This document shows, piece after piece, positions 1,943 to 51,217 of a stretch of DNA of 64,000 nucleotides. The notes under the pieces were generated by a model. That model did no database searches and was not told the origin of the DNA. It worked only from the letters and a program-made list of their open reading frames with translations. The stretch comes from Eledone cirrhosa. Its lineage: Eukaryota. Every line of letters begins with the position of its first letter. Position 1 is the stretch's first letter. The translations under genes and the position numbers were made by a program. The stretch covers positions 248,062,001 through 248,126,000 of the forward strand of contig OZ024743.1 in assembly GCA_964016885.1 (NCBI GenBank), in the 5' to 3' direction.

Positions 1943-2534
1943 AACTGGCCATTGGAGCCTTATATTTTTTTTTTCTTGCTGTTCTTGTTATTTATTGATT
2001 TATTGTATTACAATATACCTCTCATTACCATTTCACTGGATGTATATATATGTTTTTCGTTTCCTTTACAACGAACATTTTAAGCTATATTCTTCTATTT
2101 GCCGGTTTATAAATTTACCACGTAAATTTGCCGTTGAAAACCGCGCATTTGTTAAGAATGCTTATTTCTCTGGTCGCTGGCCTCTTGACTCTTCCAGGTC
2201 AACGCATTCACAACAGCAACAACTAAAACCAGCAGAACAAGCCAGACAATTTATTTCTGCAGCACTCTGCCTGTGAGAAATTCCCTTCGGAAGTTGGAAA
2301 TTTCATGTTATACCACAGACCAGAAACCACCTGCATTCATTCTCTGGAACACATTCTTTACTGCTGTCATGTGATTGCACACATGTTAACTGTATTTTAG
2401 ATATTTGAACTTTTGACCTCTTCTCGTACTTTTATTACTTTGTACCATAATTTTCATGCCTCTTACATTCTCGCCATCTTACTCCATGCATGCTTCTTTC
2501 GATTTTTATGTTTTAAAAATCTGGCGGGAGATAA

Positions 2535-28800: not shown

Positions 28801-31800
28801 ACATATTCAGTGTATTTCATGAGATATAGAATAACAAAAGGGTTTAAAATAAATAAAGAAGAGTAAGGTTACATCACTCACCCTCCAGAATCATTCAAGC
28901 ATTTCTGAGGACAAATCAAATTGTCAACATATCCGCCAACAAGAATAGCTTCGGGAAAATATTGCATTAATGTATAGCCTATTTCTGGTGGACAGAGCGG
29001 TTCATTGCAGAAAAACAGAAGTGCCTTTACATCATCTTCAGGAATATGATTCGTTCCTGGTCCTAAAATATCATCAAACTGTGTGGTACATGTGTTGATG
29101 TCAATGGTAAAACTGTGGATTTGTAAACTTTCCAATTTAGGAATAAGTAGGAAAGACAAAGATTTTTTATTTTCAATCTCAAATGACTTGTTGGTTTCAG
29201 ACTTTGTCCCTGCATCAGAGAAAAGGAGAACAGGAGAAATTTAATAGTAATGCATGAAGGTTTCTGATTTAGGCGCAAGGCCAAATTTAAGAACAAGGGG
29301 GAATTATGTTACATTTACCCCAGCATTTGACTGGTACTTTATTTTATCAACTCCAGAAGGATGAAAGGCAGAGCTAACCTCAGCAGGATTTGAACTCAGA
29401 GTGTAAAGGGTCATAACTAAATCCTGCAAAGCATTTTGTCTGACACTCCAACGATTCTGCCAATCCACCACCAAATGTCAGAATAATAAAACACATAAAT
29501 AGGGAAAATAAACTCATCCTTGGAGACAACATAGGACAGAAAATATTCTTCAGTCTTGCCAAGTACATGATATCCTCCATAGGGCTGGCACCATGATAAA
29601 ATGCACACAGTACACCCTGTAAAGTGATAGTGGTGGTTCCACGATAAAATGTATCCAGTACACTCTGTAAAGTGTGAGTGCTGATGCCACAATAAAATGT
29701 ACTCTGTACACACTGTAAAGGTAGAGTTAGTGCTACAATAAAATGCACCAAGTACACTCTGTAAAGTGGTTGGTGATAGGAAGGGCATCCAACTGCAGAA
29801 TCCATGACAAAACTTGAATATATGTAAGATGTGGCCCTTGACTCACCTGAGAGGATAGTAACTTGGTCTGTGACAACTCATCCAACCCATACTAAGAGAG
29901 AAAAATGGCTATTAAGTGATGATGATGGTAGTGGTGGTGATGCTGATGATGGCAGTAGCAATAGCAATGATGATATTGATGATAACTGCTTTACTTACCT
30001 ACAACACCATCAGCAGATATAGCAAGGAAATTGCAAAAACTGGGTAGTAATTGCTTTAGAAATGTACCAATGTCCAAGCGCATACATTTGGCAGTCCTGT
30101 GGAAGCGGGTCATGTGATTGCCTGGGAGTTTGAGTGGGTCATCAAATAAAGTTGAGGAACAGAACCCAATGAAGTTAGCAGGTTCATGCCATATCTCCTG
30201 AAAGAAAAAGATAAAAACATTATAGATAGTGTGCATAAATAAAAAATTTGATAATTGTGTTTCAATCTATGTAAATGCGTGTGTGTGATTAGTTTCGCAC
30301 AGCCAACTCGCCACCCCGCCTCATAGCAGTACCACCCAGTACTGGGCCCCAAAACTGTGGCTACACTGTGAGATGGGTCTAAGCTCCTCGTTTCAGTGCC
30401 ATTGAGTACTGGGCTCCGAAAACATGGTTGTGTTGTGAGACAGGTTTGGCATGGCCAACTGGCCTGTCCCTCCTCATAACAGAGCCATCCAGTCCCACAC
30501 TGTAAACGTGGTTGGTGTTAGGAAGGGCATCCAGTTGTAAAATACCCAGCCAAATTTACAGTACTTGCCGGTGCAAGACACAGTCAACCCTGGCCAGACT
30601 TGACTCTCGGCATGGACAACCCGTCTAACCCATGCAAGCGTGGAAAAATTGACGTCAAATGGAAATGATGATGATATATATATAACACCACTGTCATTAT
30701 TTTAACAGCTATTTTTTCCACGATGGCATGAATAGGGTAGAGTATTTTGAGACAAAGATTTTCAAGATGCCTTTCCACTTGCTTCTCCTTTTAGTTAACT
30801 CTTTACGATATGCAGGGATACAGTGTACCTATTGTAAAAACAAAAATATAATATATATAAGAGGGTGTAGTAAGATATCAGGTGGACCATAACGCACCAG
30901 AGTACTCAATACTTAGGGTAGTGGAGTGGGTAATAGGAAAAGGACCCCGGCGGCTGAGCTCCGGCCGTTTCGACAGCTAAATCCAAACTGTATTTATATA
31001 TATATATTTGACAGCTAGATCGAACTATATTTATATATATATATATCATCATCATCATCATCATCACCGTTTTACGTCCGTTCTTCCACGCTAGCATGGG
31101 TTAGACGGGTTGTCCTGTTGTGGGCAGTGTCTGGTCGGCTGACCATGCCTTGCTCATACAGGAACTGATCTGGCTTGATTTCTACAGCTGGATGCCCTTC
31201 CTAACACCAACCTCATTTACAGTGAGTGCTGGGTGCTTTTTCGTGGCGCCTACACGTCCACTTTACAGTGTGGGCTGGGTGCTTTTTTGCCGTGGCACCT
31301 CCACGACCACCTTGCGGTGGGGGGGGGGGGGCATATTGTTTATATGCTTCAGCATGTACCCATGGGAGGTCGGGTACCCTGTATTACTGCGTGACGCCAG
31401 AAGTCACGGTCGTGTGTCATTGACTTTGAGAGGTGTAGTTGGGTAAGGTCGGCTTTTATCACCTCATCCCAAGTCATCTTGGGTCTCCCCACTCCACGGT
31501 TTCCATCAACTTCTAGTGCTCTGCACCTTTTTATGCAGCTGTCATCCTTCATACGCATCACATGTCCATACCAGCGTAACCGCCTCTCCTGCACGCAGCA
31601 TTTGATTCCTCTTATGCTCAGTCTCTCTCTCAATTCATTTATGCTTTGTCGTTCACGTATATTACTGTTACACATCCATCGGAGCATGCAGGCTTCGTTT
31701 CTCTCTAATCTACGTAAGTCTTCCACCTTCAGCGCCCAGGTCTCACTACCATGCAACATCGCTGTTCGGATACACGCATCATACAGTCTGCCTTTCATTC

Positions 31801-34800
31801 TGAGGGAGAAGCCTTTTGCAGCTAGCAGTGGTAGTAGTTCCCTAAACTTCTTCCATCCCGTTCTTACCCTAGTTATTGTACTTTCTGAGCACCCACCTCC
31901 GTTGCTAATTCGGTCACCTAGGTAGCAGAAGCTGTCTACTGTTTCTACAGGGCCCTCCCAGAGATTGGTGGTACTTGTTTCCTGTGGCTGTTTGCTTGCT
32001 GTTTCAGCACAGCTGCTGCATGTGAATCCTACATTCTTAATTAAGCTTCCTGAGATCCCGCTACATCTCTTGTGTACCCATTGTTTGCATTTGGGGCAAA
32101 GAATGGAGTTCCTACCTACACCTTTCCTACATACTGAGCAAGGCCATTTCCCTGAGGGGATCTGGGTTCTGTTTTCTCGTCTACTTATAAGGACCTTAGT
32201 CTTTGTCATGTTGACTTTGAGGCCCTTTCTCTCTAGTCCCTGCTTCCAGGTTTGGAATTTATTCTCTAGTTCTACCATAGATTCAGCTATGAGTGCGAGG
32301 TCATCAGCATACAGGAGTTCCCATGGGCATCCGGTCTTAAACTCCTCCGTTATTGCCTGCAGGACTATGATGAACAGGAGAGGGCTAAGAACAGAGCCCT
32401 GGTGGACCCCAACCTGTACGCTAAATTCCTCGCTATACTCATTGCCATATATATAGTTAAAAAGTGAAGCTGAAAATACACAGAAGTATATTTAAAGATT
32501 ATTTTTTTCTTTAATTTGACAGAATTAATAATTTTATAATTGTTCTTCTCTGAAGACCTGCTGTCCAGCTCCCCTGAGAGTTTCTTTCCACTTAATATCT
32601 AATATTTGATAAGATTGTGTTACCAATCAAAACCAGTTAAATTTAATCCAACAATTATAAAATTATTTATTCTGTCGGATTAAAGAAAAAATAATCTTTA
32701 AATATGCTTCCATGTATTTTCACCTTCACTTTTTAACTATAACCTTTGTTTTGTATAGAACTTTACATTCCTTTTTCAACTATATACATATAGTTGTGAA
32801 GGGGAGTGGCTGAGTGGTTAGAGAATTGGATTCACAATTGTGAGGTGATGAATTCAATTCTCGGACTGGGAGATGTGTTATGTCCTTGGGCAAGACACTT
32901 TATTTTAGTAGGAGCTAGCCTTCCAGGCCTCCTGTCAAGCTTCATACTCATCTTGGGGTCATTTTTGAGACAATGTTTTACATGGGTAGGAACAGAATTT
33001 GAGAGGGCTAACATTATGACTAAATAAAAGTGGGCATAGTGGTCAGTGCAGGGACAGAGAGGGAGTGGGGGAAGCAATGTCAATGATGAGACAAGAAGAA
33101 TATTACCAACCTCGTGTAGAAGGCCATTAGTTATTGAGGGTTGAAATTTTTCAGATCCAGAAGAATACTTTTTCCATTTATTCAAGTATTAGACAACAAA
33201 GCATCTTCCTTACCACCATTAATGTTATCATCACCACTACTGTTGTCATCGTCAACACTATCACTGCTTCTGCCGCTATAATTGTTTACTATTTTATTTT
33301 TTTATAAGCCAACCCAAAACTACCTCTGCTGCTATCGAACAAAGCGACCCATTTTAAACGGTTTTGATTTAAATTATAATCTTTTAACGTAATTTTAGTA
33401 AATCCTTCCAAATTCTTCACCGATTAATTCAAATATAGTATATTTTATTAGAAATATGGTAATGGAAGGATTTCATTTTCACATTCTTACATGTATTGGA
33501 TAGATTTATCCAGTTTGAATTATCATCACAATAAAAATGTGTGCCCAGAATGGTAATAAATGAAGAGAAAGCCTTATAGTTGGCTGCTCATTCCAAAATT
33601 ATAGTGTAGGTTTACCATATCACTGTGTGCTGTAAGAGGTGACTAAAAGGGATGGTGCTGGGAAAGGCATCCAGTCACAAAACATTGCATCAAAAAGGAT
33701 CTCATGATGTGTATGATTATGCCTGTTATGGGAGCCTGCTTTAGATGGAAATATGCCCTTAAAATGACTATGTTGTTGCCCATTCGAAAATGAATTACAA
33801 AATGTAGAAAAATGTAATTTATTACTGCTTGCACAATACGTTTTATCATGGCACCAGCACTACCACTTTACAGTCCACTCTGTAAAGCGGTAGTGCTGGT
33901 GCCATGATAAAATGCACCCAGTACACTCTGTAAATTAGTTGTTGTTAGGAAGGTCATCCAGCTATAGAAACAATGTTAAAATATAGAATGCTTGAGTAAG
34001 ATGTGGTTCTCCAATCCATCTAATCTTAGACTGTGATAACCTATCCAACCCATACCAGCATGTAAAGAGGACATAAAATGATGATGCTGATGATGCTGGG
34101 GCATCCTCATCATCATCTACAGTTTTGCCCTTACTTGCAATAAGCCTTTGATCTTTGTCGCAAGCATCTCATTGTTTTCATCTTCATCACACTCATACAT
34201 ATTCCAGCAAAGCTTCTGCCGTTTTTTCTTGAGCTGTTCAGCAACAATTTTCCAAATTTTGCAAACTCTGAAAATTTTAAATAAGTAATAAAAGATAAAA
34301 TGTTTTCATAAAACTAATTTTGTTATCAATCATTTAGATTTCTCATAATTCTATTAGTGGTCAAGAAAGAATTAGAATCAACCATAACATGTCATGTGGG
34401 TTTGTGTGTTTGTACATATATATATATCTACACACACATACACACAATTATTGCTACAATAAAAAGGTCCCATGTTATAACCTTACATTTGACCCTGTAA
34501 ATAGTTACTTCTCCAAAGTTACTCATGAATGCCATTAACACATATATGTTAAACGTCTATGTGATTATATGGAGATAATTTTTTTTTTTTAAAATCATTC
34601 CTATCTTTACTCACTTCCACATGTCAGTAATCAACATAAACTATAGGGTTTCTCTTATGCAACCAATTAATTTATCAAAACAAATTTCCCAGTTTGTATG
34701 ATTGTTCAATATAGCCAGTAATTCTTGCACACCAATCCTGGGTTCCAAAAATACATTCAACACTATTCATTTTGTTGCTTCTATGTTGTAGTTGTTTGCG

Positions 34801-34880: not shown

Positions 34881-36183
34881 ATATATTAACAAATGGAAAC
34901 TATATTTATAAAACCATATTTATTTCATTATACATATTTCAAGGGCCACCAAAACAGATTATGGTGCGCTTTCATCAGATAAAATATAATATAGATTAGT
35001 TTTATAAATAAATATTGACATACCCTGAAAAAATGCAACCTTCACGGTTGGAGTCTCCTGGATATATATACATCTTTTTTTTATTTTCACCATCACCCTT
35101 TTTGTTATAAACTTATGTAGTTTTGATTTGAACTGACTTTTACCTTACAAGTTAATCTGGAAAACGACTCTTCTCGCCCCCTTCCTGCTTTTTCTTCTAT
35201 ATTACACACGTCATTTTGAGCAGGATGGGAAGTATTTGAGACATGATTTGTTGTTCCTGATTTTTTTGATTTTTTTTATAAGTATAAACATTTCTTTCGT
35301 GGAATGGATGGTCTGAGAACTTCACTGTTATTCGCTTGTTTTGATCTACACTGTTGGTAATTTTTGAAATGCTAACACTGAAGGAGGGCCTTCTAAGTAG
35401 TAGATTGACATGCTAGAAATAGCAGCTAAATTCTCCTCAAACCACACCTTACCATCTTTTTAAAAAAAAAGGATACGTTCAATGTTTGAACGTATTGTCT
35501 GAAAATAAGACGGGGTGATCATAGCTGGAATACTTTGATCATAAGTATGCTAAATCAGAGCTGACCTGGAGCTAAATAACTTTCCAGCTCTTCTGTGAGG
35601 TTATCTTCTGAATTTCTATGATTAATTATCGATTTAAAAGACAATTTCTATTTAATTCATTTTTTAAAAGCTGGTTATCTTCTCGAAATGAAATTTAATT
35701 TTGAAATGTTTGAATAAACTTAAGTTATTTGAAATAGAAAAATTGTGAGTGCCGCTGTTTTGTTGTTATTGTCAAACAGGATCTTACACTTTGATAAATG
35801 AAAGCCAAGATTAGAAGACAGCGCCATACATTATTACGCCAGCATATTGACTGTGGGCGAAATTTGTCAATTAAATTGTATTTATATTTTCGTGGAGAAC
35901 AAACCAACTTTATGTTTTCACCGGTAAGGAAGATGTGAGCCTTAAATGTACACATGGAGAAGACTGGAGCCAGGTCATTTGTAGTAAGAGGGGAGGGGGG
36001 ATTCAGACGAATATCGGTAATATATTAGATACCAATAGATTGTGTTGAATATTTAATAGTTACAAACCTTGCACAGGAGTTAAGAGTTTTTGCTGGAAGG
36101 AAAGACAAGACTTTCTTAGTAATGTGAGGGAATTTAGTAAGCACAAAGCCAGCTGAACTACACGTTTTAGAGCAATCGACCAT
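25859..36183 (-). CDS. FBXO22: F-box only protein 22 (F-box plus FIST domain, ~391 aa, 5 coding exons)
   Basis: Exons 36068-36183, 34135-34267, 29999-30197, 28882-29209, 25859-26258 join in phase with GT-AG (1176 nt). F-box FVLTKFPHITKKVLSFLPAKTLNSCARVCKIW and C-terminal FMFTCIGRG...F...FP.TPLVGFFGTGEVG. A further upstream exon may end at 36282 or 36286. Confidence 0.93.
27411..27730 (+). mobile_element. tRNA-head / CORE-like / RTE-tail SINE
   Basis: Homologous to 14686-15035 and ends in (GAT)n. Confidence 0.85.
30860..31030. mobile_element. (TA)n-flanked short element homologous to 49260-49400
   Basis: ggaccataacgcaccagagtactcaatacttagggtagt is shared with 49287-49325. Confidence 0.65.
31046..32446 (-). 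mobile_element. 5'-truncated RTE-clade LINE with PHD-like finger, in an FBXO22 intron
   Basis: [23 protein letters not shown]4HC3 motif and RLRWYGHVMR. (GAT)n tail and (TA)n on both sides. Confidence 0.93.
32453..32785. mobile_element. (TA)n-flanked fold-back element with decayed hammerhead core
   Basis: Inverted arms 32453-32544 and 32650-32741. The loop contains tTGATAA-gattg-tgttac-caatc-AAAAc, a mutated CTGATGA/GAAAC core with an intact 5-bp stem II. Confidence 0.6.
34921..34986 (-). ncRNA. Type I hammerhead ribozyme motif in a (TA)n-flanked ~190-bp element (34876-35061)
   Basis: Minus strand: tattttat-CTGATGA-aagcgcacca taatctgttt tggtggccctt-GAAA-tatgt-ATA-atgaaata. 8-bp stem I including one G-U, and a long stem II. 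Confidence 0.8.
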
Positions 36184-37374: not shown

Positions 37375-37418
37375 TCTTCTGATGAGGGTCCCATAACACC
37401 CTGAAATCGAATAAAAGA
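37375..37418 (+). ncRNA. Type I hammerhead ribozyme motif
   Basis: tctt-CTGATGA-gggt cccataac accct-GAAA-tcga-ATA-aaaga. Stems are short and stem III is near-palindromic. Confidence 0.6.
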
Positions 37419-37650: not shown

Positions 37651-37964
37651 TATAGTTATAGAGGTATTTATTTACGCTTTAATTTATATTTTTAATTATC
37701 GTGTCTATATTCTGCCTTTCATAGGTTATAGATTCCATACACTGGTGGTTTTTCCGTTTTATTGATGGCGAACTGTATCTCTCTCTAGTGCGTTACCTTT
37801 TCAACATAGTGTATTTTAAAGTGCCCAGGATTTCCTCTCCTTTCAGCACATTATTTACAGGGAACGGCGAGAGTCTATGGCTCCGTTAATGTATCGTGAT
37901 ATATATACATATATATACATATAAAATAAATAAGTCAAATATTTAAAATTTGGCTTCGTTTATT

Positions 37965-38019
37965 ACTGCTATATATATTTCGGTGACAGCCATCTTTGTC
38001 TGTGACCTCTTCAGGCAGT
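37965..38019 (-). ncRNA. Type I hammerhead ribozyme motif (left arm)
   Basis: actgc-CTGAAGA-ggtcacag..ctgtcacc-GAAA-tatat-ATA-gcagt. Confidence 0.82.
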
Positions 38020-38411
38020 CCGAATTAGTGTGGTAGAGACGAGTACACATGTTGTTGAGGTGTTTAACTTTGTCAATACTCTGATATGCCCAGTTCATTT
38101 TTTTGAGCTGACTCCAACACCAACACCACTACCAACATAATAGTAGAGGTCAGATGTACTTAACAAGAACAACCACTACAGATTGCCTCGCCTCAGAACA
38201 AATTTCTATAGACTTTTGACTGAGGAATGTTCTCACAACTGACCAATGGGAGGAGAGGATGTCCTCTGACGCTGAAATTCGTTTGTTTAAATTCATACGA
38301 TTCCAGTTCCTCAGTGAAATAACAACCCAACCAGGAACTGGGCATATCAGAGTATTGACAAAGTTAAACACCTCAACAACATGTGTACTCGTCTCTACCA
38401 CACTAATTCGG

Positions 38412-38466
38412 ACTGCCTGAAGAGGTCACAGACAAAGATGGCTGTCACCGAAATATATATCGCAGT
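38412..38466 (+). ncRNA. Type I hammerhead ribozyme motif (right arm)
   Basis: actgc-CTGAAGA-ggtcacag acaaagatgg ctgtcacc-GAAA-tatat-ATC-gcagt, with palindromic stem III ATATATAT. Confidence 0.85.
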
Positions 38467-38626
38467 AATAAACGAAGCCAAATTTTAAATATTTGACTTA
38501 TTTATTTTAGTTTATTTTAAATTACTCCGGAGTAACCAAACCAACCTGCACACTTCGTCGAGTGCTCCAATCTGCATACTGAGGTGTTGGTATACAACCA
38601 ACATATACTCAAAATATATATACATA

Positions 38627-39228
38627 TGGTGGCTGCCAACTCGTTTTCGAGTACGGCCACTACTTTATATCCATGTAGGAGAACCCCTACCGATGCGCTG
38701 AACGAGTATGACTTTTTAGTCCAGCCAGCAACTTGAAAACTCTGGTACAAACACTACACTTGTGACAATTATTGACACATAGTGCTGGGCCCATGGTACC
38801 ATGTGACGAAAAAGGCAGAGAGATCTCCAGATAGAAAGCAATGCCTGTGCCGTGAAGCTTTTATAGTGAGCAAAGGCACTGCACAAAGCCAGTCCCACTC
38901 TCTTAACCAAGATGATATTTACCAAAAAGAAGAACAAGTCAACATCATTGGATACCATCAGGGTTGCAGGTGTTATATCAGAGTTTTCCTTCTCTTAGAA
39001 TTCTGTCTTGACAAAGGCTAAGGGGTCATCTCTCCCAGTGATTTTGGATGGCCATTGACTCTTAAGAGGCCCTTTGACAGGTTTTGATTTTAGTCCTGCA
39101 GGATGTCCAAAGTCACCCTCCTCACCAAGAAACTTTGGTGGGGTTGCCAGTTTAGTCGCCAACGACCCGACCATGAGACAGGTTGTACTGGGATACATGT
39201 TACCAGTAGCTCCAACTGGTGACCTGAC
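38627..39228 (-). mobile_element. Short internally deleted RTE-type element (5' UTR-like start plus C2H2 finger and 3' end)
   Basis: The minus strand ends HKCSVCTRVFKLLAGLKSHTRSAHR* followed by hairpin actcg-aaaa-cgagt. Both ends abut (TA)n and no RT sequence is present. Confidence 0.6.
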
Positions 39229-39290: not shown

Positions 39291-39351
39291 TTTCATTCTG
39301 ATGATTGAAAGCAAAATTTGTTTGCTTTTAAGAAACCAATGGTAAATGAAA
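39291..39351 (+). ncRNA. Type I hammerhead ribozyme motif in a (TA)n-flanked ~165-bp element (39283-39447)
   Basis: tttcatt-CTGATGA-ttgaaagcaaa atttg tttgcttttaa-GAAA-cc aat g-GTA-aatgaaa. 7-bp stem I, 11-bp stem II, 3-bp stem III; predicted cut after 39344. Confidence 0.88.
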
Positions 39352-39469
39352 TAATTGCCTTATGTTGTTTATTACATAACTATTAAGCTCTGTTACCTAC
39401 ATAGAGCACTCTTTTTTCCTGGACTTTTCTGACGGAGTTACTTCATTTATATATATATATATATATAAA

Positions 39470-40186
39470 AAAGTGCAGGGCAATAAAAATAGACAGTAGC
39501 CACGGAGTAGGCAGACACAGAAAAACCTGGGACGACTTGATAAATTCCGACCTCACACACTTACACCTCTCCAAGACAATGTCACTGGACCGAGATCTTT
39601 GGCGCTACACAGTAATACAGAAGACCCGCCTTACCTAAGTACAAAGTGAAACCTACTACAGTCAGTAGGCATCTCTAACAAAAATACACCCGTCCCACCA
39701 CCCCTTTCAATGTAAAGTTATGTTGGTACCACAACATCCAGTCCGAAACAAATGAGTTCGTGTAGGTGTCACGACAAAAAAACACACAGTCCACGCTGTA
39801 ATGTGGCCATGTAGGTAACATGGTAAAAACCTCCCAGTCCACACTGTAAACGTGGTTGGTGTGAGTAAGGGCATCCAGCCGTAGAAAACCCGCAGACAGT
39901 CCTATGCGAGCAAGACAACCACTCTTGCCTCAAGTGGGAAAACTCCCGTCCAAACCCATGCATGGAAGTTTTCCCACTTGAGGCAAGAGTGGTTGTCTTG
40001 TTCGCATAGGACTGTCTGGCGGGTTTTCTACGGCTGGATGCCCTTCCTAACACCAACCACATTTACAGTGTGGACTGGGAGGTTTTTACCGTGTTACCTA
40101 CACGGCCACATTACAGCATGGACTGTGTGTTTTTTTGTCGTGACACCTACACGACCTCATTTGTTTCGGACTGGATGTGGTACCAA
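39470..40186. mobile_element. RTE LINE 3' end (+) fused tail-to-tail to an inverted copy of its 3' UTR
   Basis: 39470-39965 matches 45735-46250. 39968-40186 is the reverse complement of ~39720-39945. Confidence 0.85.
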
Positions 40187-40200
40187 TATACATATATATA

Positions 40201-42558
40201 TCATCATCATCATCATCATCATCGTTTAACATCCATTTTCCACACTAGCATGGGTTTGACAGGAGTTGTCCCACTTGAGACAAGGCTGGTCGGGTGACCT
40301 TTCTCGCTCATATAGGACTATTTGGCAGGGTTTCTATGGCTGGATGCCCTTCCTAACACCAACCACATTTGCAGTGTGGAACTGGGAACTTTTTACCGTG
40401 TTACCTACACGGCCACATTACAGCGTGGACTGTGTGTGTTTTTTGTTGTGACAGCTACACGATCTCGATCTCATTTTCTCGTGCTGTTGGTGGGAGTGGT
40501 AGGATAGGGTAGGGGTAGTGGATTGGGGTGTATATTTGGTTAAGAGGTGCCTACTGACTGTAGGTTTCGCTTTGTACATAGGCAAGGTGGGTCTTCTGTA
40601 TTACTGCATAGCCCCAAAAATCTTGGTCCAGAGACATTGTCTTAGAGAGATGTAAGTGTGTGAGGTCGGAATTTATCAGATCATCCCAGGTTTTTCTGGG
40701 TCTACCTACTCCGTAACTTCCATCAATTTTGATCGCCCTGCACTTTTTTATGCAGCTGTCGTCTTTCATACGCATCACGTGACCATACCAACGTAGTCTT
40801 CTCTCAAGTAAACAGCATCTGATCCCTCTTATTCCTCATTTCTCACTTAGTTCATTTATGCTTTGCCGTTCACGTATGTTACTATTACACATCCAACGGG
40901 CATGTATGTTTCGTTCCTTTCCAGTCTACGCAGGTCCTCTGCATGTAATGCCCATGTCTCACTGCCATGTAGCATTGCTGTTCATATACAGGCATCATAC
41001 AATCTGCCTTTCATTTTTAGAGAGAAACCTTTTGTGGCCAACAGCTGTATAAGCTCTCTGAACTTTTTCGATCCTGTTCTGACTCTGGCTACTGTACTTT
41101 CAGAACACCCTCCACCACTGCTGATTTCATCACCCAGGTAATGGAAAGTGTCTACTATTTCTATAGAACCATCTGGGCAATAGAAGGAGCTAGTATCCTT
41201 TGGACACTTGGTACTTATTGCACCTGAGCATTGGCCACATATAAAGTCTACGTTCTTAGATAGTTTACCTGTGATCCCACTACATCTTTTATGTACCCAT
41301 ACTTTGCATTTGGGACATAAAATGGAATTTCTGCCTACGCCTTTCCTACACACTGAGCATGGCCATTTCCCTGAGGGCACCTGTGCCCTATTTTCCTTTC
41401 TACAAATTAGAACTTTAGTCTTAGACAAGTTAACTTTAAGGCCTTTTGATTCTAGGCCATGCTTCCATGTTTCGAATTTCTTCTCTAGTTCAGCCATTGA
41501 TTCAGCTATGAGCGTTAGATCATCTGCGTATAGGAGTTCCCATGGGCAGCTGGTCTTGAACTCCTCTGTTATAGCCTGAAGGGCAATAATAAATAAGAGG
41601 GGGCTAAGGACAGAGCCTTGATGAACGCCAATTTTTACACTAAATTCTTCACAAAATTCATTGTTAATTCTAGCCTTACTGACTGTTTCATTATACATAG
41701 CTTGTATAGCTCTCACAAGCCATTCATCTACACCTAGTTTTCTAAGAGCCCACCAGATAATGGAGTGGAGGACTCTGCCAAAGGCTTTCTCCAGGTCTAC
41801 AAAAGCTAAGTAGAATGGTTTACTTTTAGCTAGGTACTTCTCCTGTAGTTGTCGTACAAGGAAAAGAGCATCTGTGGTACTTTTACCTGACACAAACCCA
41901 AACTGCATTTCATCTAGATCAATTCGCTCTCTGATTAGTTGCACTATAACTCTTTCTGTGACCTTCATGACCTGGTCAACTAACTTAATGCCTCTATAGT
42001 TTCCCCTATCTAGAGCATCCCCTTTACCCTTGTAGCAGTTAATGATGATGCTGCTACGCCAGTCTTTCGGTGTGACCCCATTCTGTATTACTTGGTTAAC
42101 TATACGGGTGACTATAGTGTGTCCCACCATACCAGATGCCTTCAACATCTCAGCAACTATCTCCGAAGGCCCAGCAGCCTTGCCTGTCTTCATATCTTTG
42201 ATTGCCTTACTTATACTACCTTTAACTTGCACCGCTGGTCCTTCTATTGGATCGATTTGGGGCAGACTATCTTTTTCCCATTTATTCTCCTCATTTAATA
42301 GTCTCTCGTAGTGACACTTCCAAGCTACCTTCTTATCAGTATCAGTGAGCGCAAGTACACCATTATCATTACGGACACACTTCTCCCCAACAATATCACA
42401 GTTTTCCTTGACACATTGTCTAGCAATCCTAAACACCTCACATTTTTGGTCCTCGCGTTGTAGAACATGCTTGAACTTTCTATCCTCTGCTACCCTTTTT
42501 GTAAGGTACACTTGTCTCCTAGCCACTTGATAGTGCTCTCTACTTACCCCATCCTGCC
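40201..42558 (-). mobile_element. 5'-truncated RTE-clade LINE with PHD-like finger
   Basis: [31 protein letters not shown] and C4HC3, with downstream stops and frameshifts and a (GAT)n tail. The N-terminal part of ORF 40982-42925 is microsatellite. Confidence 0.95.
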
Positions 42559-42576
42559 ATACACACACACACATAT

Positions 42577-42609
<33 letters not shown>

Positions 42610-42637
42610 AATATATATATATAAATATATATATATA

Positions 42638-42683
<46 letters not shown>

Positions 42684-42686
42684 CAT

Positions 42687-42721
<35 letters not shown>

Positions 42722-42909
42722 AATATATATATATACATATATATACATACATATATATATACATATATATACATACATATATACATATATATACATACAT
42801 ATATACATATATATACATACATATATATATACATATATATACATATATATATACATATATATACATACATATATATATACATATATATACATATATATAT
42901 ATACATATA
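42559..42909. repeat. Compound (CA)n/(TA)n/(TATAA)/(TACA) microsatellite
   Basis: Low-complexity run between two head-to-head LINEs. Confidence 0.97.
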
Positions 42910-45900
42910 GATCCGGGGAACACACAAGCCAGGTAGATTATATCCTTACCAGAAGACGTGACAGAGTGTCTGTTGTAAACACTAAATCCCTCCCCCATGA
43001 AGAATGCACCTCCCAACATAGACTGATAATTAGCGACCTCATAGTCAGGACGAGACGTACTCGACAGCAGAAGAGGACTATCCTCAGGAGAAAAATATGG
43101 CAGCTAAAGGACCCCACAGCCAGAAATAAATTTCAAAGCATATTACTTGATGCTTTCGACAGTAAGGAAGAGCATTTAGAGTCGGACAATATAGAGGGAC
43201 AGTGGGAATTTCTGAAAGCAAACCTGCTGATGGCGACAGACGAAGTCTGTGGCTGGAGCAGGCCTGTAGGCAGGAGGAGAGTAACATGGTGGTGGAACAG
43301 TAAGGTGGAGGGGTCAACTAAGGCCAAAAAGCAGGCTTGGAAAGTATGGCGGGATGGGGGAAGTAGAGAAGACTATCAAGTGGCCAGGAGGGAAGCTAGG
43401 AGACAAGTGTACTTCGCAAGAAGGGAAGCAGAGGAAAGAAAGTTCAAGCATGTTCTACAACGCGAGGACCAAAAATGTGAGGTGTTCAGGATTGCTAGGC
43501 AATGCGTCAAGGAAAACCGTGCTATTGTCAGGGAGAAGTGTGTACTTAATGATGACGGCGTACTTGCCGATGTAGTGACCTACATTCCGCGGGCTCACAT
43601 ACATTCTCTGTGCGTGATTTGGCTCAATTCAGCCAATCAGCGCCAGTAGAAGAGGATGTATCCCTACGCGCCCTGAGGAAGAAATTCCCCGCGAAGATTT
43701 GAAGAATCTCGCTCTTGTACCAGAAACTTCGAGCCAGCAACACGCGTAATGTAGCAGTGAGATATTGCACCCCTAGCCTCGCCGGCTTAACGGCGCAATG
43801 GCACATTCCCTTTTGTAACCTCTTTTTATCTGTAACTTCAACCATATAAATAAACAAACATTTCATCTCTAATTACTGCGGTTGAAGTCGTTATTATGTT
43901 ACTCGTGTCTCAATAACAACTTTAATCCATGCTGCTGGAATTGGCGACCTGACGAAAGGAATATTGTAAATAGATGGTAAATAGATCGAGGGACCTTCCC
44001 TCACGTCTATGTCAACAAGATAATCCAACAAGGATACTATCACTTACCACACTGGCAACTAACGACCACTGATTCTACCACCCTGCTAAAGTGGCGATAA
44101 CATCTATAACTAATACTGCTAAACTATCACCGACACTGATAAGAAGGTAGCTTGGAAGTGTCACTATGAAAGGCTACTAAATGGGGAGAATAAATGGGAG
44201 AAAGACAGCCTCCCCCACATCGACCCAATAGAGGGACCAGCAGTGCTAGTCGAGGGGAGTATAATAAGTAAGGCAATCAAGGATATGAAGACGGGTAAGG
44301 CGGCTGGGCCTTCGGAAATAGTTGCTGAGATGCTGAAGGCATCTGGCACGGTGGGACAGACCATGGTCACCCGCATAGTTAACCAAGTCGTACAGAATGG
44401 GGTTGTTCCGAAGGACTGGCATAGCAGCATCATCGTTAACTGTTATAAGGGTAAAGGAGATGCCCTAGATAGGAGTAACTATAGAGGCATTAAATTAATC
44501 AACCAGGTCATGAAGGTCACGGAAAAAGTAATAGCGCAACTAATCAGAGAGAGAATTGACCTAGATGAAATGCAGTTCGGGTTTGTGTCAGGCAAAAGTA
44601 CCACAGACGCTCTTTTCATTGTACGACAACTACAGGAGAAGTACCTAGCTAAAGGTAAACCCCTCTACTTAGCTTTTGTCGACTTGGAGAAAGCCTTCGA
44701 CAGAGTCCCCTGCTCCATTATCTGGTGGGCTCTTAGAAAACTAGGGGTTGACGAATGGCTTGTGAGAGCTATACAAGCCATGTATAAAGAAACAGTCAGC
44801 AAGGTTAGAATTAACAACGAATATAGTGAAGAGTTTAGCGTAAAAGTTGGCGTCCATCAGGGCTCTGTTCTCAGCCCCCTACTATTTATTATTGCCCTTC
44901 AGGCTATAACAGAGGAGTTCAAGACCGGCTGCCCATGGGAACTCCTATACGCAGATGACCTGACACTCATAGCTGAATCAATGGCCGAGCTAGAGAAGAA
45001 ATTCCAAACATGGAAGCACGGCCTAGAATCAAAAGGACTTAAAATTAACCTGGCTAAGACTAAAGTTCTAGTTTGTAGGAAAGAAAATAAGGCGGCGGTC
45101 CCTTCTGGGAAATGGCCATGCTCAGTGTGTAGGAAAGGCGTAGGTAGAAACTCCATTTTATGTCCCAAATGCAAAGTATGGGTACATAAAAGATGTAGTG
45201 GGATCACAGGTAAGCTAACTAAGAACATAGATTTTACATGTGGCCGGTGCTCTGGTGCAATAAGTAGCAGCAAGTGCCCACAAAATACTAGCTCTTTCAA
45301 TTGCGCAGAGGGTTCTATAGAAATAGTGGACAGCTTCCGTTACCTGGGCAACAAAATCAGCAGTGGGGGAGGGTGCTCTGAAAGTACAGTAGCTAGAGTC
45401 AGAACTGGTTGGAAAAAGTTCAGAGAGGTTATACCACTATTAGCTGCTAAAGGGTTCTCCCTAAAAATGAAAGGCAGGTTGTATGATGCCTGCATACGAA
45501 CAGCAATGTTGCATGGCAGTGAGACCTGTGCATTGTGTGCAGAGGATATACGCAGACTAGAGAGGAACGAAGCTTGCATGCTCCGCTGGATGTGTAACAG
45601 TAATATACGTGAATGGCAAAGCATAACCGAACTAAGGAAAAAATTAGAAATAAGAGGGATCAGATGTTGTTTACTCGAGAGAAGGCTACGTTGGTATGGA
45701 CACGTGATGCGCATGAAAGTCGATAGCTGTATAACAAAGTGCAGGGCAATAAAGATAGACGGTAGCCACGGAATAGGCAGACCTAGAAAAACCTGGGACG
45801 AGCTGATAAACTCCGACCTCACACACTTACACCTCTCCAAGACAATGTCACTGGACCGAGACCTTTGGCGGTACTCAGTAACAGAGAAGACCCGCCTTAC

Positions 45901-46296
45901 CTAAATACATAGTAAAACCTACTACAGCCAGTAGGCATCTCTAACAAAATACACCCCGTCCCACCACCCCCACCGCATCCACACCACCCCGTTCTATGTA
46001 AAGTTATGTTGGTGCCGCGCCGTCCAGGCTGAAACAAATGAGATCGTGTAGGTGTCACGACAAAAAAACAAACAGTCCACGCTGTAATGTGGCCGTGTCG
46101 GCAACACAGTAAAAACCTCCCAGACCCACACTGTAAATGTGGTTGGTGTTAGGAAGGGCATCCAACTGTAGAAAACCTGCCAGACAGTCCTATGCGAGCA
46201 AGACAATCACTCTTGCCTCAAGTGGGAATACCCCCGTCCAAACCCATGCAAGTGTGGAACACGGACGTTAAACGTTGATGATGATGATGATGATGA
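42910..46296 (+). mobile_element. RTE-clade LINE (APE end, RT, PHD-like finger, 3' UTR), interrupted by an LTR fragment
   Basis: SQVDYIL and SQHRLI (APE C-terminus), TWWWN, and ORF 44243-45904 with YADD and C4HC3. (GAT)n tail. The frame is open on each side of the 43569-44126 insert. Confidence 0.95.
43569..44126 (+). mobile_element. LTR-like segment (43571-44051) plus ~75 bp, inserted in the LINE ORF
   Basis: TGTAGTGA...TTACCACA, homologous to 6071-6459. Absent from the paralogous LINE at ~42345. Confidence 0.7.
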
Positions 46297-46480
46297 TATA
46301 AATGAAAAATGGCGTGCTGCGTTGTTGTGAATGTGATACATTACAATTAAAAAAGAATAAAAAAATAAAAAAATAGAATGGGACTATCCATCATCAGTGA
46401 TCTGGCCATCATATTTCTTCGCTATATATACATATATATATACATATATATATACACACTTATATATATATGTACATAAA

Positions 46481-47523: not shown

Positions 47524-48943
47524 CATATGTGGTCCATCGTGCTGTAGTTTTTCCGGAAGCCGGCTTGCTCTCTCGGTTGCTGTTCATCCAGATGACGTGA
47601 TAACCTGTTCAGGATTATCTTCATGAACAGCTTGTACACGTGAGACAGCAGGCATATGGGTCGGTTGTTCTTTAGATCTTCTCTATTGCCCTTCTTGTAT
47701 AGCAGGATGGTATTCGACTCTTTCCACTGCGAGGGTATTCTTCCCTCGTCCAGATATGTGTGAATCGCTCTGCGAGGATTTTCCAGAGGTGCTCTTTGCC
47801 TGACTTCAACACCTCCGAAGTTATGCTGTCTTTCCCTGGCGCTTTTCCGCTTTTCATCAAAAGAATACAAGATGCCTCTTTGCGTCGCGTTCGTAGACTA
47901 CGAGAAGGCCTTCAACAGCGTCAAAATCAACGCAGTTCTGAACTCGCTGCAGGGGCAAGGAGTCGAGGCGCAATACGTTCAACTGCTCAAGGAGGCGAGT
48001 TCCGGATGCACTACCGACATAGCTCTGCTGTCATCACCCGTATGAGTGCAGTCGAGAAGGGAGTGAAGCAAGGAGATACGATCTCTCCAAAACTTTTTAC
48101 TGCGTGTCTCGAGCAGATCATCAGAGGCATTGACTGGCAAGGCGGTGTCATACTTACCCACCTCCGTTTCACTGATGACATCGTACTCATCACTGAAACC
48201 ACGGATCAGCTTCAGACCATGCTGACGGAGCTCGACATCAAAAGCTCTGCAGTAGGCCTCAAGATGAACCGCATGAAAACGAAGTTCATGCGATCCGACA
48301 ACGTACCAACAGGTCGAATGGTGGTTGGCGGTGATGAAATAGAGGAGGTGGAGGAATACGTCTACCTGGGACAAGAAGTGAACATGCGCCGAGACATTGA
48401 GAGAGAGATCTCGCAGAGAGTAAGGGCTGGATGGAAGGCGTTCAATGGCATAAGGGATGTGCTCAAGGGGAGGTTGGACAAGACCACTCGCGCCAACCTC
48501 TTCAATAGCACAGTTTTACCTGCAATGTTATATGGCAGTGAAACTTGGGCTACAACGAAGAGAGACGAGCAGAGGCTGGTAACGGCTCAAAGAGCCATGG
48601 AGAGATCAATGCTAGGAATCTCGTTGAGAGAGTACATCAGGAGCGAAGTCATCAGACAGAAGTCCGGCGTGAGGGACGTCATCACGGAATATATGCGCAG
48701 CAAGTTCAGATGGGCTGAACAAGTCTCCTGGTTCACCGATAATCGCTGGACCCGTGCAGTTGCCGAGTGGTACCTGCGCAGGCAGAAACGACCACTCGGA
48801 AGGCCTCCACGAGGGTGGAGTTACGATTTTAAGAATACGATTGGGACTACATGGATGAGGAAAGCACAATCCAGAGAGTAATGGACGGCATGCTGTAACC
48901 AGCGGCGCTGAATGGATGCCCAACAGATTGGTCAGTCAAGGTG
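47524..48943 (+). mobile_element. Second RTE family LINE with inverted 5' segment (47524-47859 minus, 47861-48943 plus)
   Basis: Minus: MKSGKAPGKD...RPICLLS...QAGFRKNYSTMDHI. Plus: EYKMPLCVAFVDYEKAF...GVKQGDTISPKLF...FTDDIVL...YVYLGQ...RPLGRPP. Confidence 0.92.
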
Positions 48944-49257: not shown

Positions 49258-49477
49258 AACGAAAGAGGTGTGGTAAGGAACCAGATGGACCATAACGCAC
49301 CAGAGTACTCAATACTTAGGGTAGTAGAATGGGTAATAGGAAAATGTTTGACCCCGACGGCAGAGCTGAAGCTGTTTCGACGGCTATTTCTGGACTAAAT
49401 TCATTCACTATTTAGTCCAGAAATAGCTGTCGAAACGGCTTGAGCTCTGCCGTCGGGGTCAAACATTTTCCTATTAC
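49258..49477. mobile_element. (TA)n-flanked fold-back element homologous to 30860-31030
   Basis: Arms 49333-49400 and 49410-49477. Contains cGAAACggc but no CTGANGA. Confidence 0.65.
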
Positions 49478-49498
49478 ATATATACATATATATACATA

Positions 49499-51217
49499 TG
49501 TCATACCAAAAGATTGCAGTAGCATCATTGTCAACTGCTACAAAGGTAAAGGTGATGCACTAGATAGAGGTATAAAGCTGATGGACCAGGTCATGAAAAT
49601 AACAGAAAGAGTTATAGCACAGTTGATTAGGGACCGGGTGAAACTAGATGAGATGCAATTTAGGTTTGTACCAGGAAGAGGCACCACTGATGCCCTCTTC
49701 CTTGTGAGGCAGTTACAGGAAAAGTACCTAGCTAAAAGTAAGCCACTCTACCTGGCATTCGTCGATCTCAAGAAAGCCTTTGACAGAGTTCCACGTGCTA
49801 TAATCTGGTGGGCTCTTAGAAAACTAGGAGTAGATGAATGGCTTGTGAAAGCTGTACAAGCCATGTATAGGGGAGCAGTCAGCAAAGTTAGGATTAGCAA
49901 TGAGTATAGCGAGGAATTTAGCGTACAGGTTGGTGTCCACCAGGGCTCTGTTCTTAGCCCTCTCCTGTTCATCATAGTCCTGCAGGCAATAACGAAAGAG
50001 TTTAAGACCGGATGCCCATGGGAATTCCTGTATGTAGATGACCTCGCACTTATAGCTGAACCTATGGTAGAACTAGAGAAGAAATTCCAAACTTGGAAGC
50101 AGGGACTAGAAAGAAAGGGTCTCAAAGTCAAGTAGACAAGAAAACAGAACCCAGATCCCCTCAGGGAAATGGCCTTGCTCAGTATGTAGGAAAGGTGTAG
50201 GTAGGAACTCCATTCTCTGCCCCAAATGCAAACAATGGGTACACAAGAGATGTAGCAGGATCTCAGGAAGCTTAATTAAGAATGTAGGCTTCACCTGTAG
50301 CAGCTGTGCTGGGACAGCAAGCAGCAAACAGCCACAGGAAACAAGTACCACCAATCTCTGGGAGGGCTCTGTAGATACAGTAGACAGCTTCTGCTACCTA
50401 GGTGACCGAATTAGCAGCGGAGGTGGGTGTTCAGAAAGTACAATAACTAGGGTAAGAACGGGATGGAAGAAGTTCAGGGAACTACTGCCACTGCTAGCTG
50501 CAAAAGGCTTCTCCCTCAAAATGAAAGGCAGACTGTATGATGCCTGTATCCGAACAGCAATGTTACATGGTAGTGAGACCTGGGCGCTGAAGGTGGAAGA
50601 CTTACGTAGATTAGAAAGAAACGAAGCCTGCATGCTCTGATGGATGTGTAATAGTAATATACGCAAACGGCAAAGCATAAATGAATTGAGAGAGCGACTG
50701 AGCATAAGAGGAATCAAATGCTGTGTGCAGGAGAGGCGGTTGCGCTGGTATGGCCATGTGATGCGTATGAAGGATGACAGCTGCATAAAAAGGTACAGAG
50801 CACTAGAAGTCAATGGAAACCGTGGAGTGGGGAGATCCAAGAAGACCTGGGATGAGGTGATAAAAGCCGACCTTACCCAATTACACCTCTCAAAGGCACG
50901 CAGTAATACAGAGTACTCAACCTCCCATGGGTACCAGCTGAAGCATATAGACAATATGCCCCACACCCTCCCACTGCAAAGAAGCACCCAGCCCACACTG
51001 TAAAGTGGACATGTAGGCGCCACGGAAAAAAGCACCCAGCACTCACTGTAAATGAGGTTGGTGTTAGGAAGGGCATCCATCTGTAGAAATCAAGCCAAAA
51101 TCAGTTCCTGTATGAGCAAGGCATGGTCAGCCGACCAGACACTGCCCACAACAGGACAACCCATCTAACCCATGCTAGCATGGAAGAATGGACGTAAAAC
51201 GGTGATGATGATGATGA
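49499..51217 (+). mobile_element. 5'-truncated RTE-clade LINE with PHD-like finger (same subfamily as 31046-32446)
   Basis: AFVDLKKAF, QGSVLSP, YVDD and C4HC3, with small deletions, a stop and a (GAT)n tail. Confidence 0.93.

What the first reader, a model, noticed from the sequence alone, without database searches (positions are those of the whole stretch)
37922..38625. Young inverted pseudo-LTR pair with back-to-back hammerheads differing at the cleavage base
The 175-bp arms look identical by eye except at position 17 (AUA versus AUC, both permitted NUH triplets). Stem III is the palindrome ATATATAT, suited to dimeric cleavage. Inverted arm + spacer + arm + tail is the classic Penelope 5'-inversion product. 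Transcripts from either strand would contain one sense ribozyme and could form long dsRNA.
Basis: partly seen in the sequence, partly recalled or inferred. Interest (0 to 1): 0.75.

Follow-up and report, generated by a model that had tools for sequence, protein, structure and literature searches.

The report
Twin-primed stub of a Penelope retrotransposon
This mirror-image repeat is a short, truncated copy of a very abundant jumping gene of a known kind (a Penelope-like retrotransposon) whose end carries a predicted self-cutting RNA; the one base that differs between its arms is likely an ordinary mutation, and the mirror shape likely arose when both cut DNA strands copied the element's RNA from two fixed start points.

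Summary
In detail: 175-bp inverted arms with one mismatch, at hammerhead position 17. The piece is a 5'-truncated, 5'-inverted copy of a high-copy Penelope-like element. Longer copies have the pLTR-ORF-pLTR form and the motifs of the Hydra clade, not Neptune. The hammerhead fold is supported by covariation across 24 diverged motifs; cleavage was not tested. The AUC variant is background mutation: genome-wide AUA 3294, AUC 7, neighbouring A>C control 8. Back-to-back hammerheads are common (11 pairs among the first 100 listed motifs) and already in print. On either strand the antisense arm would pair with the one sense ribozyme, so the two cannot cleave as a dimer in cis. The added result is family-level: copies end at two fixed sites about 95 nt apart, and inverted pairs join one end of each type (23 of 23 classifiable independent pairs; lone arms split 17:17). 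In some pairs neither arm lies within the other, which favours twin priming over fold-back. The scan has already reached this reading on other DNA (53 notes, at least 15 genomes). Verdict: ordinary new member of a known kind.

The parts
37922..38096 (-). Inverted arm: 5'-truncated pLTR copy with the short ('site A') end, corresponding to 38335-38509. It stops one 10-nt TTTATTTTA unit before the family's usual site A (38519-38522).
37965..38019 (-). Minimal type I hammerhead motif with the family-typical AUA triplet (N17 at 37970)
38095..38096 (.). 2-nt microhomology (TC) at the head-to-head junction of the two arms
   Evidence: family alignments extend to 38095
38097..38614 (+). Direct copy: 5'-truncated 3' UTR / pLTR plus tail, with the long ('site B') end; no coding sequence left
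38097..38334 (+). 'Spacer': the element's own sequence, present in other copies at 93-96% identity; includes a ~150-nt module that recurs upstream in the 3' UTR
38293..38301 (+). Family hotspot of 5' ends (44 of 76 arm starts fall in 38286-38311); a short palindrome in most copies; not used by this copy; possibly the RNA 5' end (untested)
38412..38466 (+). Minimal type I hammerhead motif: stem I 38412-16 with 38462-66, core 38417-23, stem II 38424-49 (one pair lost by C>A at 38432, shared by both arms), GAAA 38450-53, palindrome 38453-60, N17 = C at 38461 (rare variant)
38467..38472 (+). AATAAA directly after stem I (polyadenylation-signal-like; function untested)
   Evidence: sequence
38510..38614 (+). 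One-sided tail between the two fixed ends (about 95 nt from family site A). In full-length copies it runs on into the 5' leader; site B lies 55 nt before the ATG in L236.
37899..37921 (.). Left (TA)n-like target microsatellite; 37909-37922 matches 38614-38627 (14 nt), a possible but unproven target-site duplication
38615..38627 (.). Right (TA)n-like target remnant, shared with the start of a neighbouring unrelated repeat

Best explanation
This is a truncated, non-coding copy of a high-copy Penelope-like retrotransposon with Hydra-clade motifs, sitting in a (TA)n microsatellite, whose two arms were likely made by twin priming and whose single arm difference is likely a neutral mutation. Shown: family membership, the RT/GIY-YIG ORF in longer copies, two fixed outer ends, the one-of-each pairing rule, and covarying hammerhead stems. 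Inferred: the element's protein nicked both target strands; one 3' end primed cDNA at RNA site B (38614) and ran to 38097, the other primed at site A (38509) and ran to 38335; the two cDNA ends annealed through 2 nt and were filled in. The hammerhead is cargo of the pLTR and would act, if at all, as a dimer in the parent's tandem transcript. At this locus any read-through RNA would trap it in a 175-bp duplex.
For: Family: 40 near-full-length matches at 93-100% (self included) among 40 scored of 3572 candidates; 3294 exact 25-mers, 0 for the reversed control. Parent: pLTR-ORF-pLTR in L236, inverted arm + ORF + pLTR in L237 and L238; RWK, DKT, RT motifs, CxCx5C, CxxC, CxH, and only one Cys inside the GIY-YIG core match the Hydra definition. 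Two ends: 29 A, 57 B, 3 other of 89 arms; 46 A, 46 B, 13 other of 105 arms in 60 loci not chosen by end type. Pairing: of 33 diverging pairs 25 A+B, 1 B+B, 0 A+A, 7 unclassified; without a duplicate locus (L145) and a nested locus (L146, two rows) 23 of 23, p=1.2e-7; 23 of 24 if the B+B row is kept, p=1.5e-6; lone arms 17 A, 17 B, 5 other. Sister families: 5 of 5 pairs long+short. Six of 18 directly joined A+B pairs (5 of 17 without L145) are not nested, three with no overlap at all. Arms share a rare variant in 12 of 33 pairs against 2.6% of 9960 unrelated arm pairs. A Penelope-like protein cleaves and extends both strands and starts at two RNA sites that bound the tail in vitro (PMC11167929). 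Ribozyme: 81% of cells paired vs 60% shuffled, 0/500 shuffles as high, 16 of 17 pairs with two-sided changes.
Against: This copy's short arm lies wholly inside its long arm, so for this one insertion fold-back is not excluded; twin priming is inferred from the family. Nine of 18 joined pairs share one 5' end and fit either model. One B+B pair (L045) among 28 in the earlier, biased set. Shared rare variants could also come from one source locus or from conversion between arms; the window's own shared change (38432) also occurs in 3-4 other single arms and missed the rarity cut. The related-sequence caveat applies to one search's shuffles, and the motifs were found with a pattern that fixed the core. 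PAc is a Poseidon, not a Hydra, element, and showed no strand difference in start site. The target duplication is ambiguous.
Confidence: 0.72

Rival explanations
1. Same element, but the inverted arm arose by fold-back or self-priming: one cDNA (or an antisense RNA, as proposed for Adineta Penelopes) snapped back on itself and was copied until site A.
For: Proposed in PMC3846280 (passages). This copy's short arm is nested in the long arm with a 2-nt microhomology. Many junctions centre on a short palindrome at 38293-38301. It explains shared variants.
Against: It cannot make pairs in which the short-ended arm reaches further 5' while the other holds the tail (6 of 18, three without overlap; also L052, L055, L061, L075; L237). 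Lone arms end at site A as often as at site B (17:17), so A is a start site in its own right.
Confidence: 0.17
2. Two independent insertions, from different RNAs, into the same (TA)n tract in opposite orientation.
For: Tracts are hit repeatedly: converging and stacked copies occur (L063, L144, L153, L157, L189).
Against: No (TA)n at the junction; strict A+B pairing; 11 diverging vs 1 converging pair among 100 listed motifs; excess of shared rare variants.
Confidence: 0.04
3. A functional, host-kept locus: two ribozymes with different cleavage triplets, or a hairpin RNA source for small RNAs or A-to-I editing.
For: A 175-bp duplex is predicted on both strands (-383 and -405 kcal/mol for the whole element); arms are unusually alike (P about 0.01-0.04 under family rates).
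Against: AUC is at background rate. Both arms carry a stem II change that weakens the fold (stem II z -1.7 vs -4.9 for the family form). Similar pairs are common. The surroundings are repeats; all stop-free frames of 170 aa or more in the window looked transposon-like or low-complexity by eye.
Confidence: 0.04
4. A DNA transposon / MITE with 175-bp terminal inverted repeats, or an assembly fold-back artefact.
For: Long, near-perfect inverted arms.
Against: The arms are not terminal (105-nt tail), arm length and junction differ from copy to copy, most copies have no second arm, and longer copies lead into an RT ORF. The left arm stops at a family-specific site and differs by one base, which a fold-back read would not give.
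Confidence: 0.02

Closest known systems
Hydra clade of C-terminal EN+ Penelope-like elements (Craig et al. 2021, PMC8557442; e.g. Hydra-1_Obim listed in its supplement)
   Same: RWK, DKT, CxCx5C linker, CxxC and CxH around the E and N, no CCHH, C-terminal GIY-YIG, hammerhead near the 3' end, (TA)n target.
   Different: Longer (about 4 kb in L236, with low-complexity inserts and a repetitive 3' UTR, vs 'generally <3 kb'); clear pLTR (Hydra-1_Obim is listed as 'no pLTR'); a different hammerhead; thousands of copies; tail about 95 nt rather than 30-40 nt.
Penelope insertion units with an inverted pLTR and one-sided tail (Adineta Pen2a, PMC3846280; Fig. 2 legend of PMC8557442)
   Same: Inverted 5'-truncated copy next to the direct copy; tail at one end only.
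   Different: Here the ORF is wholly lost; the tail may be on either the longer or the shorter arm; the pairing rule is counted.
Minimal hammerheads of metazoan PLEs (Cervera and de la Pena 2014, PMC4209133)
   Same: Short stem I, long stem II, palindromic stem III, predicted dimer; that paper already notes dual motifs 100-700 bp apart on opposite strands.
   Different: Sequence family only; cleavage not assayed here.
PAc (Poseidon of Anolis; Frangieh et al. 2024, PMC11167929)
   Same: Two fixed RT start sites bounding the tail; AT-rich targets; both strands cut and extended in vitro.
   Different: Other clade. PAc sites lie inside the ORF and the hammerhead overlaps the ATG; here both sites and the hammerhead lie upstream of the ATG. 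One-site-per-strand pairing was not reported in the parts read.
LINE-1 twin priming (recalled, no call)
   Same: Two target-primed cDNAs joined head to head by microhomology.
   Different: L1 inversions do not usually duplicate sequence and use no fixed second site; here the arms often overlap and both starts are fixed.

Membership tests
EN+ Penelope-like element | Single ORF with RT and C-terminal GIY-YIG endonuclease | tested here: met
   In family copies, not in this stub: RT motifs and endonuclease motifs read in L213, L041, L236-L240. Pfam gave no RT or GIY-YIG hit on the family's own fragments; homologue P0038 hits RVT_1 below cut-off.
EN+ Penelope-like element | pLTR: direct repeat before and after the ORF (partial tandem) | tested here: met
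   L236 has the window's pLTR at both ends of the ORF.
EN+ Penelope-like element | Adjacent inverted 5'-truncated copy and one-sided tail | tested here: met
EN+ Penelope-like element | Target-site duplication | tested here: inconclusive
   14-nt direct match at the flanks, but both are microsatellite and the right one is shared with a neighbouring repeat.
Hydra clade | RWK motif and DKG changed to DKT | tested here: met
   RMRWKAF and HADKTS in L213.
Hydra clade | CxCx5C linker; CxxC and CxH around the conserved E and N; no CCHH | tested here: met
   CNCRNPESC, CKLC, CRH; one Cys only between the GIY-like and YIG motifs.
Hydra clade | (TA)n insertion preference and canonical hammerhead | tested here: met
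   (TA)n directly or within ~30 nt after the 3' end in nearly all of the 30 copies (L023 runs on into the leader instead).
Hydra clade | Placement in the clade on an RT tree with named elements | not tested
   No named Hydra sequence was available to the tools; only supplement snippets were seen.
Neptune clade | CX2-5CxxC linker and CCHH motif | tested here: not met
   Linker is CxCx5C and the two cysteines inside GIY-YIG are missing.
Minimal type I hammerhead ribozyme | Intact core (CUGANGA, GAAA, UH) with covarying stems I and II | tested here: met
   no Rfam hit.
Minimal type I hammerhead ribozyme | Palindromic stem III allowing a double hammerhead | tested here: met
   Predicted only: cofold of two sense copies pairs the palindromes, -30 to -31 vs 2 x -11.5 kcal/mol.
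Minimal type I hammerhead ribozyme | Self-cleavage at N17 | not testable with these tools
   No assay. No excess of copies starting at 38462 was seen among 76 arm starts (3 start at 38466).
DNA transposon / MITE | Fixed terminal inverted repeats with constant length | tested here: not met
   Arms vary from about 30 to over 350 nt, are not terminal and are absent from many copies.

The most novel reading that the evidence does not exclude
Penelope-like insertions obey a one-site-per-strand rule: a protein dimer on one RNA primes one target strand at the inner site and the other at the outer site, so the inverted pLTR and the one-sided tail are a single twin-priming product and not fold-back. 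The sharp pile-up of 5' ends at 38293-38301 marks the transcription start, so most short copies are run-off products from the front end of the element's own RNA.
Probability: 0.55. Interest if true: 0.5.

Novelty: new member of a known kind. Interest (0 to 1): 0.22.

Why it matters
The locus itself is one of many alike and the cleavage-base difference carries no signal. The family adds a high-copy Hydra-type element with clear pLTRs and an unusually long tail. Its copies give a countable genomic test between twin priming and self-priming for the inverted structures whose origin PMC8557442 and PMC3846280 leave open. The two start sites are 95 nt apart and lie in non-coding sequence, which makes them easy to mutate in an in vitro assay. 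The same conclusion is already among this scan's notes for other genomes and another piece of this genome.

Tried and rejected
Rfam scan: no hammerhead. Pfam and PDB scans of the family ORF: nothing relevant. Homologue search with the endonuclease stretch: 0 of 75 candidates; with the RT fragment 1010 hits, nearly all unnamed. My first label, Neptune clade (notebook), was dropped after the motif check. Expression: no RNA holder listed; three runs of unknown kind held only as contigs were laid and none spanned the locus, so they say nothing on transcription, editing or the junction. Empty-site search through the right flank: the flank is another repeat that starts at microsatellites, so no empty site was found. 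Ribozyme-cut 5' ends: no excess at 38462. Shared rare variants were not dominated by A>G (3 of 16). My hand-made constrained fold was off by one base, so its +4.1 kcal/mol value is void and not used. Rows dropped before counts: 4 of 89 arms, 59 of 206 arms, L145 and L146 in the pairing test. The 60 loci are most of the first 78 matches listed plus three later loci picked because they were pairs, without knowing their ends. Literature searches for the twin-priming reading found no paper stating it for Penelope elements; the library lacks most subscription journals. Papers seen: PMC11167929 and PMC4209133, parts 1-2 of 4 each; PMC8557442, passages, section 11 and supplement rows; PMC3846280, passages; all others as listings only. 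Supplementary figures of these papers were not seen and may already show the end-pairing pattern.

Full report
Observation. The arms lie at 37922-38096 and 38335-38509, are 175 nt long and differ at one base, 37970/38461. Read in ribozyme orientation each has stem I ACUGC/GCAGU, core CUGAAGA, a long stem II, GAAA, the palindrome AUAUAUAU and N17, which is A on the left and C on the right. The ribozymes point away from each other. Rfam found no hammerhead and 71-nt folds were unremarkable. A 58-nt fold gives the hammerhead shape, and two sense copies are predicted to pair through the palindrome.

What it belongs to. The 529 bases right of the junction match a large family: 40 scored candidates of 3572, at 93-100%. 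All 30 fetched copies end at the same place, 38612-38616, nearly all followed by (TA)n, and most run further upstream than the window's copy. Longer copies lead into RT and GIY-YIG coding sequence. L236 has the full partial-tandem form, pLTR-ORF-pLTR, with the upstream pLTR running through the tail into a leader and an ATG 55 nt later. So the window holds only the non-coding 3' end. The protein has RWK, DKT, a CxCx5C linker, CxxC and CxH, and lacks CCHH. These are the features given for the Hydra clade (PMC8557442 section 11), not Neptune. No tree was built, so the clade call rests on motifs.

Is the hammerhead real? Inside this young family conservation says little, because copies drift after insertion. 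A core-plus-palindrome pattern finds 3864 further sites in the genome against 1 for the reversed control. Across 24 diverged motifs the stems, which the pattern did not fix, covary: 81% of cells pair vs 60% in shuffles and at most 56% when slid, and 16 of 17 pairs change on both sides. Without alignment, stem I averages 5.3 pairs vs 3.0 for permuted partners, and stem II beats shuffles at p<0.05 in 14 of 23 motifs. The structure is therefore under selection in the parent elements. Cleavage is untested. Published minimal hammerheads cleave poorly and only as dimers (PMC4209133) or only with protein, and were dispensable for insertion in vitro (PMC11167929).

The cleavage-base difference. The family state is AUA: 77 of 81 arms. 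Genome-wide exact 25-mers give AUA 3294, AUC 7, an A>C change three bases away 8, and the non-NUH AUG 16. The C is a background change in the right arm. Both arms also share a C>A at 38432 that removes a stem II pair; it occurs in a few other single arms as well.

Back-to-back arrangement. Among the first 100 listed motifs, 11 neighbouring pairs within 5 kb are diverging and 1 converging, so such pairs likely number in the hundreds (extrapolated). PMC4209133 already notes dual motifs 100-700 bp apart on opposite strands. On either strand a read-through RNA would contain the antisense arm first and one sense ribozyme second, predicted to form a 175-bp duplex. This would silence the ribozyme rather than help a dimer. 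No RNA data were available to test transcription.

How it was made. Copies end at two sites: A (about 38505-38524, here 38509, one 10-nt repeat unit early) and B (38605-38616). In 60 loci not chosen by end type there were 46 A, 46 B and 13 other arms. Of 33 diverging pairs 25 were A+B, 1 B+B, none A+A and 7 unclassified. Without a duplicated locus and a nested one the count is 23 of 23 (p=1.2e-7), while lone arms split 17:17. The earlier, biased set gave 25 A+B, 1 B+B and 2 other of 28; sister families gave 5 of 5 long+short. In 6 of 18 directly joined pairs the A arm reaches further 5' while the B arm holds the tail, so neither can be a copy of the other, and in three (one a duplicate) they do not overlap. 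Arms share a rare variant in 12 of 33 pairs vs 2.6% of unrelated arm pairs. With the in vitro result that a Penelope-like protein cuts and extends both strands from two RNA sites, the simplest reading is twin priming, one site per strand. The self-priming model of PMC3846280 fails for non-nested pairs but cannot be excluded for this copy, whose short arm is nested. One RNA versus two RNAs from one source is not resolved.

A further family feature. 44 of 76 internal arm starts fall in 38286-38311. This may be the RNA 5' end, or a palindrome that anneals to itself and to (TA)n. This copy does not use it. No excess of starts was seen at the ribozyme cut.

Age. One difference in 175 ties for the lowest of 22 pairs, against 3.75% between unrelated copies, but the interval reaches 3.2%. 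The copy differs from the family majority at 8 of 518 positions plus a short deletion. It is probably among the younger copies.

Comparison and verdict. Structure, ribozyme type, target and clade are all described (PMC8557442, PMC4209133, PMC3846280, PMC11167929). Differences are a roughly 95-nt tail, start sites upstream of the ATG, and high copy number for a Hydra-type family. My searches found no paper stating the pairing rule, but the scan's own notes hold the twin-priming reading 53 times in at least 15 genomes; I had recorded it before that look-up, and those notes are not independent evidence. The locus is ordinary: interest 0.22.

Noticed in passing
window 34929-34978 (-): Another minimal hammerhead motif with an 8-bp stem I, from a different family.
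   Followed up: partly
window 39298-39344 (+): Hammerhead motif with an 11-bp stem II that folds as a monomer; its stem III (ACCA-A-TGGT) matches that listed for Hydra-1_oBim in the supplement of PMC8557442.
   Followed up: partly
window 37379-37413 (+): Hammerhead-like core with a short stem II, downstream of sequence that looks like another decayed retroelement end (by eye).
   Followed up: partly
window 38628-39228: An abundant ~600-bp repeat (747 candidates, best 40 at 97-100%) that begins right after (TA)n or (TACA)n in all 15 copies viewed and often occurs twice nearby. Not identified.
   Followed up: partly
window 39465-40751: Nested inverted repeats (192, 163 and 68 nt arms) of another dispersed family; its central hairpin gives a sub-threshold Rfam microRNA match.
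   Followed up: no
window 30498-31224, 32452-32741, 40194-46303, 42351-43567: Further inverted repeat pairs, 77-91% alike.
   Followed up: no
window 2-2080; 31352-32491; 44123-45901; 47703-48878; 49416-50637: Stop-free frames that resemble an LTR-retrotransposon pol gene (first) and LINE reverse transcriptases or other transposon proteins (labels recalled from motifs, not tested).
   Followed up: no
family coordinate 38293-38301; e.g. L135, L151, L155, L173, L185, L189: Hotspot of 5' ends; several pairs are near-perfect palindromes centred there.
   Followed up: partly
G000 genome-wide; L081-L120: At least 3864 sister hammerhead cores; one sister family is mostly lone short-ended arms, unlike the 1:1 split of this family.
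   Followed up: partly
L144 and L145 (G000:C1, about 1 Mb apart); L031 and L032 (G000:C4, 10.6 kb apart): Near-identical insertions with shared flanks: segmental duplications or assembly duplicates.
   Followed up: no
L032:3750 onward (+); L044:2176 onward (+); L047 (minus strand): Long frames of other elements near family copies: 620 aa Helitron-like, 1156 aa LINE-like, and a 687 aa frame like another Penelope clade (labels recalled).
   Followed up: no
L041, L236-L240, between RT and endonuclease and in the 3' UTR: Low-complexity inserts in the ORF and a 3' UTR built of repeated ~150-270-nt modules; homologue P0003 has an asparagine-rich insert at a similar place, recalling the N-rich inserts of PMC3846280.
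   Followed up: no
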